A DNA stretch of 64,000 bases from an uncultured delta proteobacterium (GTDB lineage Bacteria; Desulfobacterota; Binatia; Binatales; Binataceae), in contig CAWCDG010000004.1 of NCBI GenBank assembly GCA_963794325.1, positions 1 through 64,000 on the forward strand. The letters run 5' to 3'. The notes beneath the pieces are model-generated. The model was not told the origin of the DNA, ran no database searches, and saw only the letters and a list, made by a program, of their open reading frames with translations. This document shows positions 4,296-8,667 of this stretch, one piece after another. The position numbers and the translations under genes were made by a program. Positions within the stretch are counted from its first letter, which is position 1, and every line of letters begins with the position of its first letter.

Positions 4296-4457
4296 CTAAT
4301 CGGGCGGCGGGACCAGGGATCCGTTCCGCACGGCCTCCGCGGCGAGCACCCCGAACAGGTAGAAGTACGCCGCCTCCTCATCGTCGAAAGTGCGCACCTC
4401 GTGCCGGGCACCGTCTGACGCGCTGAACACCTCGAAGCCGTCGGGGATCCGGATCAT
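4296..4457 (-). CDS. 3' fragment of a small hypothetical protein, cut at the junction with mutL
   Basis: IRIPDGFEVFSASDGARHEVRTFDDEEAAYFYLFGVLAAE reads as natural protein; upstream sequence becomes out-of-frame mutL. Confidence 0.5.
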   Translation of the reverse strand: MIRIPDGFEVFSASDGARHEVRTFDDEEAAYFYLFGVLAAEAVRNGSLVPPPD

Positions 4458-5082
4458 CGAGCACCGAGTTGGCGCGCGGCAGATCGAAAACGACGCGGCC
4501 GTCGGCGGACAGGCGGAATGCGATGTGATGATTGGCGAGCGCGACGCGCTGGAACGACTCCGCGATCGCACCCTGCTCGGTCGCGAGCGTCTTCAGAAAC
4601 TTGAGGCGCACCGGGGTATTGAAGAAAAGCTCGCGAACTTCGATTCGGGTGCCCGCGGCAATCGCGCAGGTGCGGGTGTCCTCGATGTTGCCGGCTTCGG
4701 CTGCGACCTCGACCCCGTGATCGTCGGCACTGCGGCGGGTTTGCATCCGCAGATGCGAGACGCTGGCAATCGAGGCGAGCGCCTCGCCGCGAAACCCGAG
4801 CGTGCGAATCGCGGTCAGGTCGGAAGCGCTGCGAATCTTCGAAGTGGCATGGCGGCGCAGCGAGAGGATCGCGTCGGCGCGGGTCATACCGGAGCCGTCG
4901 TCGGCGACTGCGATCAGCGCGGATCCGCCGCCGAGAATCTCGACACTGACCGAGCGCGCGCCCGCATCGAGCGAGTTCTCGACGAGCTCTTTTACCGCGG
5001 AGGCCGGCCGCTCGACGACTTCGCCGGCCGCGATCTGGCTGGCGACTTGCTCGGGCAATATGTGGACGATGTGGTCGGACAT
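4458..5082 (-). pseudogene. mutL: DNA mismatch repair protein MutL, N-terminal ~208 codons only
   Basis: QIAAGEVVERPASAVKELVENSLDAG, DDGSGM, RHATSKI, TLGFRGEALASI, LFFNTPVRLKFLK; similarity stops abruptly after RANSVL. Confidence 0.95.
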
Positions 5083-5258
5083 TTTTACCGGACGACTTAA
5101 CTGGGTATTGTAGCTTTCGCACCGGATAACTGGATACTCAAGCATCGCGGAATCGCGGCGTCAGGAGCAGGGGGATTGAATTGCACGGGTTGAAGATCGC
5201 GGCGGGTTTTGAAAAGCTCTCGGCGCGGCAAATTCGCGGTTTCGGTATCACTCAAGCG

Positions 5259-6491
5259 ATGAGAAAAATTACGGTAATGCTGATCGGCGCGGCAATCATG
5301 GTGGCCGCGGCTGCGGCGGGGGCGTCTGCGGAGATCAAGATCGGAGTCGGCGTGATTGGGCCGATCTCGCCGCAGACCGAGGCCGATATCGATCAGATTG
5401 TGGGCAAGCTGCCCAACGTGAAAGTGGTGCCGATTCAGCCGCCGGGGGGCGTCGATAAGTGCGTCAAGCGATTCGTCGCGGGCGACCCGGACGATCGGCT
5501 CGACGCGGTGATGATCGTGAGTCTGCCGACCGAGTCGTTTCAATCATCGCGCGACTCGAACGAGGCCAAGTTTACCGGCGCTTATGAAATCTGGACGCTC
5601 GATCTCTCGACGCTGGCCGAGGACCGCCATCGATTTACCTTCACCGACAGCGAGCACGTGATCGGCGGCTTGTCCGCGTTCCTGGCGCTGCCAGCGCAGG
5701 CGTTTGCCGAGCGCGCGACGGGCAAGAAACTTATCTCGAGCGATCAATGGCAGGCGTTCGAGGCGGTGCAGACGCGGGTCGAGGCCAAGCTGGTCGCGGC
5801 GACCAAGCTGTATCTCGCGACCGCGTCGATTCGCGATACCACTCCGCTCAATCCGCTGGAAACGGCGAAAGCGCTGCTCGATCGCGGCGACGGCGAGGAC
5901 GCGATGGCGGTGTTCAAGTCAGCGGGAATCAATAATCCCGACGTGCAGCGAATGATCGCAGCCGCGCAGAATCAGTTGAAGCGCAGCGCGGCAAATGCGC
6001 TGCTCGGACGCACGCTCGGAGCGATGGCGGGCGGGAATGCGAGCGAGGCGCGGGTGATTCTGGCCGACTACGAGAAAGCGCCGTCAGCCGAGGCGTCGCG
6101 CGCGGATTCGATTCGGCGGGTGCTGGCGTACGTGCCCGACCGCCACCCGGATTCGAGATATGACGGCGTGATGAAGACCGACGTGCCCGCGCTCGACCAT
6201 CAGGCGTTCGTCGCGATGATCAAGCAGCTCTTCAGCGAGCAGACCGGATCGCTTCCGAACGATGTGATCGTCAGCGCCAAGGACGTCACAATCGAGGACA
6301 AAGAGGCGCCCAAGGGACTGAAGGAACAGCTCGACAGCTATGCGGGAGCGCTCGGGCGCAGCGCATGGTTGATGAGCCTCAAGTGCGGATGCGACGCAAA
6401 TGCGGTGCTGACTTCGGAAGCGGTCGGCGACGCGCTGCTGAAGGCCTCGTATTCACCCTCTTTCACGCGGCCGCACGTCGGGCTACCCTAG
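5259..6491 (+). CDS. Secreted hypothetical protein (~410 aa), helical/TPR-like central region
   Basis: Signal peptide MRKITVMLIGAAIMVAAAAAGASA; long ORF with host-like codon usage. Confidence 0.7.
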   Translation: MRKITVMLIGAAIMVAAAAAGASAEIKIGVGVIGPISPQTEADIDQIVGKLPNVKVVPIQPPGGVDKCVKRFVAGDPDDRLDAVMIVSLPTESFQSSRDSNEAKFTGAYEIWTLDLSTLAEDRHRFTFTDSEHVIGGLSAFLALPAQAFAERATGKKLISSDQWQAFEAVQTRVEAKLVAATKLYLATASIRDTTPLNPLETAKALLDRGDGEDAMAVFKSAGINNPDVQRMIAAAQNQLKRSAANALLGRTLGAMAGGNASEARVILADYEKAPSAEASRADSIRRVLAYVPDRHPDSRYDGVMKTDVPALDHQAFVAMIKQLFSEQTGSLPNDVIVSAKDVTIEDKEAPKGLKEQLDSYAGALGRSAWLMSLKCGCDANAVLTSEAVGDALLKASYSPSFTRPHVGLP

Positions 6492-6536
6492 CAGGTTGTC
6501 CTTGCCCAAGATTTTCAAGGTTCAAACGGAAGACTC

Positions 6537-6725
6537 ATGAGACATTGCGCATACTGCAAAAAGCATCCGTCAGTCGGCAACAACGTCAGTCACGCCAACA
6601 ACAAGACCAAGCGGCGCTGGAATCCCAATCTGCAGGAAGTGCGTGCGGAGATAAACGGGAACGTGCAGCGAATCCTGGTCTGCACGCGATGTATCCGCTC
6701 GGGCAAGGTCAAGAAGAGCGCGTAG
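6537..6725 (+). CDS. rpmB: 50S ribosomal protein L28 (zinc-ribbon form)
   Basis: CAYC...[20 protein letters not shown]...VCTRCIRSG. Confidence 0.97.
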
Positions 6726-6746
6726 CGCGAATACACTTCATTTAAT

Positions 6747-6769
6747 GTGAAACCCGCGGTGGGTTTCAC
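6747..6769 (+). terminator. Hairpin after rpmB (GTGAAACCC/GGGTTTCAC), possible terminator
   Basis: Perfect 9-bp stem with 5-nt loop; U-tract weak. Confidence 0.45.
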
Positions 6770-6778
6770 GCTTCCTTC

Positions 6779-6800
6779 GGCAGGGGTGACCCCTGCACCC
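6779..6800. repeat. 22-bp REP-like palindrome GGCAGGGGTGACCCCTGCACCC, copy 1
   Basis: Identical copy at 48615-48636; internal hairpin GCAGGGG-TGA-CCCCTGC. Confidence 0.85.
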
Positions 6801-6855
6801 GGTACTAATCGCAAAATGGCGAGGACGCCCTTTTGCTCTCAGGTTCTTGATTTTG

Positions 6856-6929
6856 GTGGCACAGGCTTCAGCCTGTGATTTTCTGGTCCATGTATCGAGG
6901 AAGGAATCACAGGCTGAAGCCTGTGCTAC
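6856..6929. repeat. Inverted REP doublet (REPIN-like), unit GT[G/A]GCACAGGCTTCAGCCTGTGATT
   Basis: Arms 6856-6880 and 6905-6929 match 24/25 in inverted orientation; each is self-palindromic with a GTAG/GTGG 5' tetranucleotide typical of REPs. Confidence 0.85.
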
Positions 6930-6933
6930 GTAC

Positions 6934-7284
6934 TTACAATAACGCTTCGAGTTTTTCCGGGGGACGCGCGATGATTGCGCGCTTGCCGCGAATTACGATT
7001 GGACGCTGCATCAGCTCTGGATACTCGAGCAGGAGCGCGACCACCGTCTTCTTGTCGGCGTAGTCAGCGGGATTAAGGCCGAGTTCCTTGAAGCGTTTGT
7101 CTTTGCGGACCAGGTCGGCGACCGGACCGTCGAGCAGGTCGATGATTTTTTCGAGCCGCTCGCGGGTCGGATGGTCTTTAAGATATTCGATGATGTCGAA
7201 CTCGACATCGCGCGCGCGGAGTATCTCGAGCGCGCCGCGCGAATTGCCTCATCCGGGGTTGTGAAAAAGTGTTATGCGTTCCAT
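6934..7284 (-). CDS. arsC: Arsenate reductase (ArsC, glutaredoxin-type family), probable selenoprotein with Sec at codon 12
   Basis: Manual translation: MERITLFHNPG-TGA-GNSRGALEILRARDVEFDIIEYLKDHPTRERLEKIIDLLDGPVADLVRKDKRFKELGLNPADYADKKTVVALLLEYPELMQRPIVIRGKRAIIARPPEKLEALL. GAGG RBS upstream; 117 codons including stop. Confidence 0.9.
7204..7248 (-). promoter_or_regulatory. Candidate bacterial SECIS element immediately 3' of the arsC UGA
   Basis: mRNA GGCA-AU-UCGCGC-G-GCGCG-CUC-GAG-AUA-CUC-CGCGC-GCGCGA-UGUC folds into a long bulged stem-loop starting at the first base after UGA. Confidence 0.65.
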
Positions 7285-7392
7285 CGTGTCCTCGCCTGAT
7301 TTTTGGAGAGCATAGGCGATGTGCGGGCTTTGATGGAACCCCCGCCAGCGGCTACAATTCACCCGCGCGAAACCTATTGTCATGGAGTCGTT

Positions 7393-7986
7393 GTGAAAAA
7401 CATTTCCAAGCGCAAGTCGAGACGCTTCCTTAGTTTCACGGCGGTTGCTCTATCGGTTGCAGTCGGCGCGGGTCTCGCCCAGATTGCGCGCGCCGCGAAC
7501 GTGAGCGGGACGATGTCGTACCGCGACGGCAAGCCGGCCGACAAGCGCCAGCTCCATTACGAGAATCGGGTGACCAGCGATATCTTCGTCGCGCCGACCA
7601 AACCCGACGGCTCGTTCACGGCGGACCTGCCGCCGGGATTTTACGATCTCCGGGCAGAACGGGGACTGATTCTCGCCAGCAAGATTCGCGTCGATGACAA
7701 GGACGTGAACGTCGGCCATGTCGTCGAGCCTGCACCGCTCGACGTGCGCCGGCCGTTTGAGCGCGAAGGTGTGGCGGAGTCGCTGGTCGAGAGCCCAGCG
7801 CCCGCGACTGCGAACGTGACGACGGGACGTCCGCTCGAAGCGATGAGATATGGGCATGAAGCGGTGGCTCCGTTCGGCGCGCCGGTCGGTACGCCAGCGC
7901 CGGAATCCACCCCGCTCGGAGAGGCTACACCGGTCGCGGCAGCGTCACCGGGAGCGATGGAATCGCCGGGTATGGGTGGCTACTGA
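7393..7986 (+). CDS. Secreted protein with carboxypeptidase-regulatory-like (CnaB-type) beta-sandwich and Pro/Ala/Thr-rich tail
   Basis: GGAG RBS plus GTG; signal peptide with SRRFL and ARA cleavage; VSGT..DGKP...TKPDGSFTADLPPGFYDL pattern. Confidence 0.65.
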   Translation: MKNISKRKSRRFLSFTAVALSVAVGAGLAQIARAANVSGTMSYRDGKPADKRQLHYENRVTSDIFVAPTKPDGSFTADLPPGFYDLRAERGLILASKIRVDDKDVNVGHVVEPAPLDVRRPFEREGVAESLVESPAPATANVTTGRPLEAMRYGHEAVAPFGAPVGTPAPESTPLGEATPVAAASPGAMESPGMGGY

Positions 7987-8277: not shown

Positions 8278-8667
8278 TCAGATGGCGGTTCGTTCTACGA
8301 ATTCCAGGCGGTTGCCCCAGGGGTCGCGGACGAAGAAGCGGTCCTGGCCGGGGAATCGGTTGCCTGCGATTATTTCTATGCCGGCGGTTTTCAGTTTCTG
8401 ACGGAGTGCTTCGAGATTGGCGACGCGGAAGGCGGGATGCCGGCGCGATTTTTTGTTGACCGTCGATGCGTCTTTCTCGGTAGTCAGATGCAGTTGCTGC
8501 ACGCCGCATTGGTACCATGCGCCGGGGTTGCCGCTGTCGGTGTTGGCGGGACGCTCGAGGGGTTCAAGGCCGAGCAGTTCCTGGTAAAATGCGCGCGCCC
8601 GCGAGAGCGCGTCGTCGCCGGCGTCGATGAGAAGGTTTACGTGATCGAGTCCAATAATCAGTCCCAT
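8278..8667 (-). CDS. VOC/glyoxalase family protein
   Basis: LDHVNL..ARAFYQELLGL..QLHL..HPAFRV..FFVRDPWGNRLEF. Confidence 0.9.
   Translation of the reverse strand: MGLIIGLDHVNLLIDAGDDALSRARAFYQELLGLEPLERPANTDSGNPGAWYQCGVQQLHLTTEKDASTVNKKSRRHPAFRVANLEALRQKLKTAGIEIIAGNRFPGQDRFFVRDPWGNRLEFVERTAI

What the first reader, a model, noticed from the sequence alone, without database searches (positions are those of the whole stretch)
6934..7284. Hidden selenoprotein: arsenate reductase with UGA at the catalytic Cys12
Seen: an RBS-led 117-codon frame absent from the ORF track has a single in-frame TGA (7249-7251) at codon 12, in HNPG-[TGA]-GNSR. Established: glutaredoxin-type ArsC (R773/E. coli) has HNPAC12GTSR with Cys12 as nucleophile and needs Arg60, Arg94 and Arg107. 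Matching motifs LVRK, MQRPIV and ARPPE are intact here, and the protein has no other Cys. A stop exactly at the catalytic Cys of an otherwise undecayed gene, followed by a hairpin, is the signature of selenocysteine recoding. Sec-ArsC-like proteins have been noted in metagenome surveys, so the family is probably not new, but gene callers miss this gene. It also stands outside any ars operon, so its substrate may not be arsenate.
Basis: partly seen in the sequence, partly recalled or inferred. Interest (0 to 1): 0.8.

Follow-up and report, generated by a model that had tools for sequence, protein, structure and literature searches.

The report
Selenocysteine ArsC-type reductase gene, known family
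This is a real, intact gene for a small arsenate-reductase-type enzyme whose catalytic cysteine is replaced by selenocysteine. This kind of selenoprotein has been predicted since 2005, so the find is correct but fairly ordinary, apart from an unusually distant recoding hairpin.

Summary
Window 6934-7284 (-) is a 117-codon frame (116 residues plus a TAA stop) with one TGA (7249-7251) at codon 12, in HNPG-U-GNSR.

It is almost certainly read as selenocysteine:
- The genome has selA, selB, a selD that itself carries a TGA, and tRNA-Sec.
- In 90 orthologs of the same class that I fetched, codon 12 is TGA in 54 and TGC/TGT in 36.
- Codons after the TGA are under purifying selection, dN/dS 0.09-0.20.
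- Contigs of four public runs keep the TGA.

The protein is a glutaredoxin-type ArsC: PF03960, and Arg60, Arg94 and Arg107 align to R773 ArsC. The 'arsenate reductase, UxxS' selenoprotein family has been in print since 2005 (PMC1088965), and this scan has met it before on other DNA.

The added point concerns the hairpins. The one right after the UGA is not Sec-specific. The next one (7192-7209, loop AGUU) is kept in 53 of 54 Sec forms and 2 of 36 Cys forms, with compensatory changes. Its loop starts 46 nt after the UGA, outside the published 16-37 nt range.

The substrate is unproven: a canonical ars operon lies elsewhere in the genome.

The parts
6934..7284 (-). Coding sequence of the Sec-containing ArsC-family reductase: 116 residues, TAA stop at 6934-6936.
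   Evidence: Searches give the frame. Pfam PF03960 scores 46.8 bits (cut-off 24) and TIGR00014 scores 101.4 bits (cut-off 106.05) with C written for U. The best solved relative is R773 ArsC, 1i9d/1jzw, E 1e-16.
7289..7293 (-). Shine-Dalgarno-like GAGGA, 4 nt before the ATG at 7284-7282.
   Evidence: Read directly.
7249..7251 (-). In-frame UGA, codon 12, read as selenocysteine at the place of the catalytic Cys12 of ArsC.
   Evidence: TGA stands at this codon in 54 of the 90 orthologs fetched and TGC/TGT in the other 36. No other letter was listed here in the contigs of 4 runs.
7210..7240 (-). Hairpin 1. It starts about 8 nt after the UGA and is built from the GAL and RAR codons. I propose it is a structured spacer, not the SelB site.
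   Evidence: It is in the MFE fold. Some hairpin forms here in all 54 Sec forms (mean -16.6 kcal/mol) but also in many Cys forms (mean -13.6). Its register differs between lineages, so it is not in the RNAalifold consensus. In this gene its loop is AUA, with no G.
7192..7209 (-). Hairpin 2: a 7-bp stem (GAUGUCG / CGACAUC) with loop AGUU (7199-7202). This is the proposed SelB-binding part of the SECIS.
   Evidence: The six inner pairs are intact and the loop holds GU in 53 of 54 Sec forms, against 2 of 36 Cys forms. 97.0% of cells are paired, 24 cells changed on both sides, and 0 of 500 shuffles reach this. Cys forms are 67.9% paired, reached by 32 of 500 shuffles. It is the only helix in the RNAalifold consensus of the 54 Sec forms.

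Best explanation
The gene encodes a 116-residue glutaredoxin-type ArsC-family reductase. UGA at codon 12 is decoded as selenocysteine by the organism's own Sec system: SelA and SelD make Sec-tRNA(Sec), and SelB delivers it. Selenocysteine takes the place of the nucleophilic Cys12 of R773 ArsC, and the three arginines that hold the oxyanion (R60, R94, R107) are kept. By analogy the selenolate attacks arsenate or a similar oxyanion, and the adduct is resolved by glutathione and glutaredoxin. The recoding signal is most likely the second hairpin after the UGA (7192-7209, loop AGUU). Hairpin 1 folds between it and the UGA and may bring it into SelB's reach.

Shown here: the frame, the TGA/Cys alternation, the Sec machinery, purifying selection, and Sec-linked conservation of hairpin 2.

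Inferred: that Sec is inserted, that hairpin 2 binds SelB, that hairpin 1 acts as a spacer, and that arsenate is the substrate.
For: Frame and motif:
-.

Sec machinery in the same genome:
- selB scores 375 bits and selA 570 bits.
- selD scores 377 bits and has one in-frame TGA, in AAG-U-AGK.
- tRNA-SeC with anticodon TCA.

Orthologs:
- Among 41 relatives, 30 hold a full-length ortholog: TGA in 14, TGC/TGT in 16.
- After fetching 60 more loci the tally is 54 TGA and 36 Cys, all at codon 12.
- In the class-wide search my hand count of the 150 listed rows is 99 with one TGA and 51 with none; 96 further matches were not listed.

Link to selA:
- selA is over its cut-off in 13 of the 14 Sec-form genomes. 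The exception, G021, is 64% complete.
- The 3 genomes that hold an ortholog but gave no selA match (G010, G019, G032) all carry Cys.

Selection and reads:
- dN/dS of codons 13-116 is 0.09-0.20 against the 11 other Sec forms of the genus (median 0.17 over 66 pairs).
- Contigs of 4 runs cover 7249-7251 with no listed difference.

Family:
- PF03960, and TIGR00014 just under its cut-off. 5 of 5 Cys orthologs tested pass it (107.7-138.4 bits). Of the 2 other Sec forms tested with C for U, one passes (107.7) and one does not (105.5).
- R60, R94 and R107 align with R773 ArsC.

Hairpin 2:
-.
- On a tree built without its columns, Sec/Cys changed at least 6 times on well-supported branches. Hairpin 2 went the same way in 5.6 of 6 independent pairs and the other way in 0 (median sign-test p 0.03).
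- The loop variant CGUG changes two residues (EF to AC) yet keeps the stem and the GU.
- Ten other selenoprotein genes of this genome carry 5-7 bp hairpins with GUU, GUC, AGUU, GGC and similar loops.
Against: No protein or selenium data exist for this gene.

SECIS:
- Hairpin 2 fails the published spacing rule. Its loop starts 46 nt after the UGA, against 16-37 nt (PMC13188914, passages).
- In the 10 other selenoprotein genes of this genome the loops start 16-25 nt after the UGA. That is my reading of the sequences printed; some of these hairpins are not in the MFE fold.
- Rfam gave no SECIS match.
- The fold of the region is not significantly more stable than shuffles.
- Two Cys forms (L021, L042) keep hairpin 2 intact.

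Family and substrate:
- The protein scores 101.4 bits, under the TIGR00014 cut-off of 106.05.
- The gene is not in an ars operon. The genome has ArsR, a glyoxalase-like gene, an LMW-PTP-type ArsC and ACR3 about 1.84 Mb away on the same contig, so arsenate reduction may not be this gene's job.

Expression:
- The one RNA-library contig over the gene is from a relative (12 differences) and does not prove transcription.
Confidence: 0.9

Rival explanations
1. The gene is a pseudogene: an ArsC gene killed by a nonsense mutation at the Cys12 codon.
For: The TGA is a standard stop in this lineage: 25 of the 30 orthologs end in TGA. Gene callers would truncate the gene, and sees only a 104-aa open frame.
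Against: The same TGA stands at the same codon in 54 of the 90 orthologs fetched, across several families of the class. dN/dS downstream is 0.09-0.20. The RBS, the start and all catalytic arginines are intact. Sec forms occur where selA is found.
Confidence: 0.02
2. Sec is inserted, but the functional SECIS is hairpin 1 (7210-7240), which sits at the canonical spacing. Hairpin 2 is conserved for another reason, such as translational pausing, mRNA stability or protein constraints on the VEFD residues.
For: Hairpin 1 starts about 8 nt after the UGA, so its apical region lies within the published 16-37 nt range (PMC13188914, passages). Some hairpin forms there in all 54 Sec forms, and it is on average more stable than in Cys forms: -16.6 against -13.6 kcal/mol, Mann-Whitney p 0.002, not corrected for kinship.
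Against: Its loop is not conserved and in this gene is AUA, without the G that the model requires. Its register shifts between lineages, so RNAalifold finds no consensus helix. Many Cys forms have it equally well, because GCGCTC (Ala-Leu) and GAGCGC (Glu-Arg) are reverse complements. Hairpin 2 alone decays when Sec is lost. Residues 26 and 31 covary at the nucleotide level so as to keep hairpin 2 paired.
Confidence: 0.2
3. The protein is a genuine selenoprotein but not an arsenate reductase. It would be a stand-alone ArsC-fold thiol/selenol oxidoreductase acting on another substrate, such as another oxyanion or a disulfide or selenylsulfide.
For: No ars genes are adjacent. The conserved neighbours in the genus are a 436-aa protein of no family, rpmB (my reading of the translation), a 227-aa protein with only a language-model lead to a CarboxypepD_reg-like fold, and a glyoxalase/FosA-like gene. 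A complete ars operon with its own LMW-PTP-type ArsC lies elsewhere. The protein is 116 aa, like the short stand-alone homologs 3f0i and 3rdw rather than the 141-aa R773 enzyme. The 2026 review says the functions of these predicted selenoproteins remain largely uncharacterized (PMC13188914, passage).
Against: All residues known to matter for arsenate chemistry in R773 ArsC are kept: position 12, R60, R94 and R107. Cys orthologs pass NCBI's equivalog model for glutaredoxin-type arsenate reductase.
Confidence: 0.35
4. The TGA is an assembly or sequencing error, or the organism reads TGA as an ordinary amino acid under another genetic code.
For: The genome is a draft of 10 contigs, 85% complete.
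Against: Contigs of 4 runs from 3 studies agree (one of them may be the source sample). 53 other genomes carry the same TGA. TGA ends most orthologs of this very gene. A dedicated tRNA-SeC is present.
Confidence: 0.01

Closest known systems
Predicted selenoprotein family 'Arsenate reductase' / 'ArsC 1' (COG1393, pfam03960, TIGR00014; motif UxxS). Sources: Zhang, Fomenko and Gladyshev 2005, Sargasso Sea (PMC1088965, passages and tables); GOS 2008 (PMC2398784, table: 77 Sec and 784 Cys sequences); reviews PMC9312934 and PMC13188914 (tables).
   Same: It has the same Pfam family and the same U-x-x-S motif (U-G-N-S) at the catalytic Cys position, and Cys homologs are widespread. It was likewise found by Sec/Cys homology, and gene callers miss it.
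   Different: The published members come mostly from marine metagenomes. This one is from a soil bacterium; soil metagenome runs hold the stretch. In the passages I read, the papers show a SECIS figure for one member but do not describe a loop 46 nt from the UGA. I could not see the figures.
R773 / E. coli glutaredoxin-coupled arsenate reductase ArsC (PDB 1i9d, 1jzw, 1j9b).
   Same: The first 111 residues align at E 1e-16. HNPxC12GxSR, R60, R94 and R107 are all in register.
   Different: It has Sec instead of Cys12, Gly instead of Ala at position 11, and 116 rather than 141 residues. It is not in an ars operon. Its activity has not been tested.
Canonical bacterial SECIS: the fdhF type and the bSECISearch consensus (PMC13188914 section 5, passages; PMC4605307 section 15, passage: 6-8 bp stem, conserved loop G about 20 nt after the UGA).
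   Same: Hairpin 2 has a 6-7 bp stem, a 4-nt loop with G then U at positions 2-3, and an MFE of -8.5 kcal/mol. It has the same form as the hairpins behind the UGA of 10 other selenoprotein genes of this genome, two of which have the same AGUU loop.
   Different: The loop starts 46 nt after the UGA instead of 16-37 nt, and a roughly 30-nt hairpin lies in between.
Spx/MgsR regulators and other ArsC-fold proteins (TIGR01617).
   Same: They share the ArsC/thioredoxin-like fold family (PF03960).
   Different: There is no CxxC motif, and the score of 55.1 bits is under the cut-off of 75.05.

Membership tests
Bacterial selenoprotein gene (SelB-dependent UGA recoding) | An in-frame UGA aligned with Cys in homologs, with the frame conserved on both sides. 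| tested here: met
   54 TGA against 36 TGC/TGT at codon 12; dN/dS 0.09-0.20 downstream.
Bacterial selenoprotein gene (SelB-dependent UGA recoding) | selA, selB, selD and tRNA-Sec are present in the genome. | tested here: met
   All are over their curated cut-offs, and ARAGORN calls tRNA-SeC (tca).
Bacterial selenoprotein gene (SelB-dependent UGA recoding) | A SECIS hairpin with a G in a small apical loop 16-37 nt after the UGA (consensus model, PMC13188914). | tested here: inconclusive
   Hairpin 2 meets the loop, stem and energy criteria but its loop starts 46 nt after the UGA. Hairpin 1 meets the spacing but has no loop G in this gene. Rfam gave no SECIS match.
Bacterial selenoprotein gene (SelB-dependent UGA recoding) | Selenium is found in the protein. 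| not testable with these tools
   This needs 75Se labelling or mass spectrometry.
'Arsenate reductase / ArsC 1' selenoprotein family (UxxS) | A PF03960 protein with Sec in a U-x-x-S motif at the catalytic Cys position. | tested here: met
   U12-G-N-S15. The family definition is from PMC1088965 table 3 and the PMC2398784 table.
Glutaredoxin-type arsenate reductase (TIGR00014 equivalog) | A score over the curated cut-off of 106.05 bits. | tested here: not met
   101.4 bits with C written for U; 5 of 5 Cys orthologs pass (107.7-138.4 bits); of 2 other Sec forms tested one passes (107.7) and one does not (105.5). The shortfall is small and the orthologous group straddles the line.
Glutaredoxin-type arsenate reductase (TIGR00014 equivalog) | A nucleophile at position 12 plus Arg60, Arg94 and Arg107. 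| tested here: met
   alignment to 1i9d/1jzw, all in register, with Sec at position 12.
Glutaredoxin-type arsenate reductase (TIGR00014 equivalog) | Genomic link to arsenic resistance genes (arsR, arsB or acr3). | tested here: not met
   no ars gene is among the neighbours; the ars operon lies at C4:~1849800-1852240.
Glutaredoxin-type arsenate reductase (TIGR00014 equivalog) | Arsenate reductase activity coupled to glutathione and glutaredoxin. | not testable with these tools
   This needs an enzyme assay.
Spx/MgsR family | A CxxC motif and a TIGR01617 score over 75.05 bits. | tested here: not met
   the motif is U-G-N-S and the score is 55.1 bits.

The most novel reading that the evidence does not exclude
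ArsC-type selenoprotein mRNAs use a distinct class of bacterial SECIS. The SelB-binding hairpin (stem plus an xGUx loop) lies 40 nt behind the UGA. A structured spacer hairpin folds out of the way, so the unpaired path from the UGA to the SelB site shrinks to roughly the canonical 11 nt. This architecture is conserved in 53 of the 54 Sec forms examined from this bacterial class and decays each time Sec is replaced by Cys. If true, spacing rules used by SECIS finders (16-37 nt) miss a whole family, and through-space distance rather than linear distance would be what SelB needs.
Probability: 0.5. Interest if true: 0.5.

Novelty: new member of a known kind. Interest (0 to 1): 0.3.

Why it matters
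The gene is an annotation blind spot. Standard callers drop it or keep a dead fragment, so selenium use and ArsC-type chemistry are under-counted in soil bacteria. In this bacterial class the Sec form is the commoner one: 99 of the 150 listed matches by my hand count.

The family itself is not new, and its biochemical role, Sec against Cys and arsenate or not, has never been tested.

The one point beyond routine is the recoding signal. The hairpin that tracks Sec lies 46 nt from the UGA, outside the published model, and a second hairpin lies in between. That makes a simple and testable case for how far, and by what geometry, a bacterial SECIS can act.

The genome is also selenoprotein-rich, with at least 11 such genes counting this one. 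That gives an internal reference set of canonical SECIS elements read by the same SelB.

Tried and rejected
- **Rfam scan** of 6700-7500 at E up to 10: no SECIS or other credible family. The only hits were sub-threshold miRNA models on the long inverted repeat at 6855-6930, which is part of a dispersed repeat.
- **Single-sequence folding** of the region behind the UGA: z = -1.21, not informative in this G+C-rich DNA.
- **RNAalifold on Cys forms**: no consensus structure.
- **My own genome scan for in-frame TGA**: it gave 837 candidates, mostly adjacent genes in one frame. The ArsC gene itself fell out of the filtered list, probably because its 11-codon N-terminal part scores too low. Two picked candidates (HUGRVC, NUPRC) turned out on reading to be a pair of adjacent genes and an SDR with a spurious upstream frame, and I dropped them. 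Nine others were kept after Pfam.
- **Neighbour annotation:** Pfam and NCBIfam gave nothing for the 436-aa and 227-aa neighbours. The protein atlas gave only a CarboxypepD_reg lead (0.92) and an unnamed cluster, so there is no functional link.
- **ARAGORN on 6500-7000**, to explain the very high contig depth at 6727-6900: no tRNA. The depth comes from the dispersed repeat.
- **RNA expression:** only one RNA-library contig, from a relative, lies on the gene. That does not show transcription.
- **Earlier notes on this genome**: none on this topic.
- **Not used:** The search for homologous proteins, structure prediction, fold search, complex prediction.

Full report
**Observation**

On the minus strand an ATG at 7284-7282 follows a GAGGA (7293-7289) after a 4-nt spacer. 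It opens a frame of 116 sense codons that ends at TAA (6936-6934). The only internal stop is TGA at 7251-7249, codon 12, in HNPG-[TGA]-GNSR. The translation holds no cysteine. The ORF list shows only the short frame that ends at this TGA, and no in-frame ORF of 40 aa or more behind it.

**What the protein is**

With C written for U, the protein matches Pfam ArsC (PF03960, 46.8 bits, cut-off 24). Its best NCBIfam match is TIGR00014, arsenate reductase (glutaredoxin), at 101.4 bits, just under the cut-off of 106.05. The Spx/MgsR models score far under theirs.

Against solved structures the best matches are R773 ArsC entries (1jzw, 1i9d; E 1e-16 over residues 1-111). The short stand-alone homologs 3f0i and 3rdw come close behind. 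In the printed alignment the UGA codon faces Cys12 of HNPACGTSR, and R60, R94 and R107 are in register.

Five Cys-form orthologs all pass TIGR00014 (107.7-138.4 bits). Of two other Sec forms read with C, one passes (107.7) and one does not (105.5). The orthologous group is therefore what NCBI would name a glutaredoxin-type arsenate reductase, and this member sits just under the line.

**Is the UGA read as Sec?**

The genome is 4.45 Mb in 10 contigs and 85% complete; the window is the start of contig C4. It holds:
- selB (375 bits) and selA (570 bits);
- selD (377 bits), which itself has one in-frame TGA in AAG-U-AGK;
- a tRNA-SeC with anticodon TCA.

In 41 relatives, 30 full-length orthologs were found. 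Codon 12 is TGA in 14 and TGC/TGT in 16.

selA is over its cut-off in 13 of the 14 Sec-form genomes; the exception is 64% complete. Of the 16 Cys-form genomes, 12 have selA over the cut-off, one has a fragment at a contig end, and three (G010, G019, G032) gave no match. Sec forms are thus seen only where the machinery is.

A search of 401 genomes of the class found a match at E <= 1e-15 in 241. Of the 150 rows listed, I counted by hand 99 with one TGA and 51 with none; 96 further matches were not listed.

I fetched 40 more TGA rows and 20 more rows without a stop, chosen to spread over genera and families and leaving out unpublished genomes. Together with the first 30 loci this makes 90 orthologs, and all 54 Sec forms have the TGA at codon 12. 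53 of the 54 have Gly just before it, against 2 of 36 Cys forms.

Further support:
- Codons 13-116 give dN/dS of 0.09-0.20 between this gene and the 11 other Sec forms of its genus (median 0.17 over 66 pairs). The part behind the stop is under purifying selection.
- Contigs of four public soil-metagenome runs (3 studies; one may be the source sample) cover 7249-7251, and no other letter is listed there (24 weaker differences were not shown).

A pseudogene, a sequencing error and another genetic code are therefore very unlikely. TGA also ends 25 of the first 30 orthologs.

Two of the 90 loci come from unpublished genomes: L030 from G024 and L039 from G019. No conclusion depends on them; without them the counts are 53 and 35.

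**The recoding signal**

The MFE fold behind the UGA has two adjacent hairpins: hairpin 1 at 7240-7210 and hairpin 2 at 7209-7192.

Hairpin 1:
- It is built from the codons for G-A-L and R-A-R (in other lineages A-L and E-R, whose codons GCGCTC and GAGCGC are reverse complements).
- Some hairpin forms there in all 54 Sec forms but also in many Cys forms. Mean MFE is -16.6 against -13.6 kcal/mol, p 0.002 without correction for kinship.
- Its register shifts between lineages, so RNAalifold finds no consensus helix.
- In this gene its loop is AUA, without a G.

Hairpin 2 behaves differently:
- In 53 of 54 Sec forms all six inner pairs are intact and the loop is AGUU, CGUG or AGGU. Among the 36 Cys forms only 6 keep the six pairs and only 2 (L021, L042) also keep a GU loop.
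- On the 54 Sec forms it is the only consensus helix. 97.0% of cells are paired, 24 cells changed on both sides, and 0 of 500 shuffles reach this; slid registers give 10-68%.
- Pair 45-58 is C-G in 30, U-A in 18 and G-C in 3 distinct rows. These columns lie in the codons of residues 26 and 31, so two protein positions covary to keep the RNA paired.
- The CGUG loop variant changes residues EF to AC but keeps the stem and the GU.
- On the 36 Cys forms the same helix is 67.9% paired, which 32 of 500 shuffles reach.
- On a DNA tree built without codon 12 and without the hairpin's columns, Sec/Cys changed 18 times on the best tree and at least 6 times on well-supported branches. Hairpin 2 changed the same way in 5.6 of 6 independent pairs on average and never the other way (median p 0.03).

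**Comparison with other selenoprotein genes of the same genome**

My own scan for in-frame TGA, followed by Pfam with TGA read as U, gave nine further genes in which a domain spans the TGA:
- six AhpC/TSA-type (motifs WUGC twice, WUPYC twice, WUPFC, GUIFC);
- one CMD/AhpD-like (CHYU);
- one rhodanese;
- one UGSC-family protein.

With selD that makes ten, all from families already known to include selenoproteins. Behind each UGA I read a 5-7 bp hairpin with a 3-5 nt loop (GUU, GUC, AGUU twice, AGUCU, CGGGU, GGC twice, GUG) whose loop starts 16-25 nt after the UGA. I read these from the sequences printed; some are not the MFE fold.

[quoted passage not shown] It also fits a loop G about 20 nt downstream (PMC4605307 section 15, passage).

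Hairpin 2 of the ArsC gene has the same form, at -8.5 kcal/mol, but its loop starts 46 nt after the UGA. If hairpin 1 is folded, the unpaired path from the UGA to the foot of hairpin 2 is about 8-11 nt, close to the canonical spacer. That hairpin 2 binds SelB and that hairpin 1 acts as a structured spacer are inferences; nothing here tests them.

The 2026 review states that a subset of putative bacterial SECIS elements fails the consensus model. In the passages I read I found no description of this arrangement (literature searches). I could not see figures 3 and 4 of PMC1088965, which draw a SECIS for one arsenate reductase member. An earlier report of this scan on another genome (e1-4662060) reached the same reading of a distant second hairpin. 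I found it after my own analysis, and it is not independent evidence.

**Surroundings and function**

Within the genus the gene is monocistronic. It is flanked the same way in Sec and Cys forms:
- downstream and convergent, a 436-aa gene of no family (5181-6491, +) and a 62-codon frame (6537-6725, +) that I read as ribosomal protein L28 from its translation (family not searched);
- upstream and divergent, a 227-aa gene (7303-7986, +) with only a language-model lead to a CarboxypepD_reg-like fold;
- then a glyoxalase/FosA-like gene (8278-8667, -).

None of these relates to arsenic. A canonical cluster of ArsR, a glyoxalase-like gene, an LMW-PTP-type ArsC and ACR3 lies at about C4:1849800-1852240.

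The catalytic set for arsenate chemistry is intact, but the physiological substrate is open. I put about one chance in three on a substrate other than arsenate.

**Comparison with what is known, and verdict**

'Arsenate reductase, UXXS' was reported as a new selenoprotein family in the Sargasso Sea study of 2005, with 14 sequences (PMC1088965, passages and tables). It was counted as 'ArsC 1' in GOS, with 77 Sec and 784 Cys sequences (PMC2398784, table). ArsC-like selenoproteins are listed for Deltaproteobacteria in PMC1794560 (tables), and the family is in the reviews PMC9312934 and PMC13188914 (tables). I read only the passages and tables that the search returned, and no supplements.

This scan holds 34 earlier notes matching all my search words. 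The 8 shown are all on ArsC-family genes with this UGA in other genomes.

The gene is therefore a new member of a known kind: real, mis-called by gene finders, and biochemically untested like the rest of its family. The distant, Sec-linked hairpin is the only feature that goes beyond routine.

Noticed in passing
window 6730-6933: The spacer between the L28-like gene and the 3' end of the ArsC gene is made of a dispersed repeat. 6730-6855 has 134 matches of 50 nt or more (47 of 90 nt or more) on all 10 contigs of the genome. 6856-6933, a long inverted repeat, has 27 matches of 50 nt or more. The element looks MITE/REP-like. It explains the summed contig depths in the thousands at 6727-6900 in soil runs and the sub-threshold miRNA hits in Rfam.
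   Followed up: partly
G000 contigs: C2:78959-78961, C4:1177758-1177760, C4:561467-561469, C9:63351-63353, C7:136188-136190, C4:388424-388426, C4:213038-213040, C4:997333-997335, C7:71417-71419, C4:1159440-1159442: Ten further selenoprotein genes lie in the same genome, outside the window. Each has a Pfam or NCBIfam domain spanning an in-frame TGA: six AhpC/TSA-type, one CMD/AhpD-like (CxxU), one rhodanese, one UGSC family and SelD. All belong to known selenoprotein families, and most would be truncated by gene callers. My scan was crude, so more may exist; formate dehydrogenase, for instance, was not searched.
   Followed up: partly
codon 11 of the gene (window 7252-7254) and orthologs: 53 of 54 Sec forms have Gly directly before the Sec codon, against 2 of 36 Cys forms, which have Ala, Val, Lys, Arg, Gln or Ser. 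52 of 54 Sec forms have G directly after the UGA. The cause could be active-site packing around selenium or codon context for recoding.
   Followed up: no
window 6537-6725 (+) and 6365-6745 (+): The 126-aa ORF at 6365-6745 seems spurious. The conserved gene there is a 62-codon frame that reads like ribosomal protein L28 (rpmB). This is my reading of the translation, not a family search.
   Followed up: no
window 4378-5145 (-): The N-terminal 200 or so residues of MutL (TIGR00585, 302 bits, profile positions 1-203 of 555) lie in a 255-aa ORF. The rest of the gene must lie in another frame or ORF downstream, which suggests a frameshift or an ORF-listing effect. I did not check.
   Followed up: no
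G012:C10:934646-935975 (relative, Cys form): In this relative selA matches in two pieces (profile positions 2-344 and 333-443), so it is possibly frameshifted, and the genome carries the Cys form of the ArsC gene. This could be a lineage in the course of losing Sec use.
   Followed up: no
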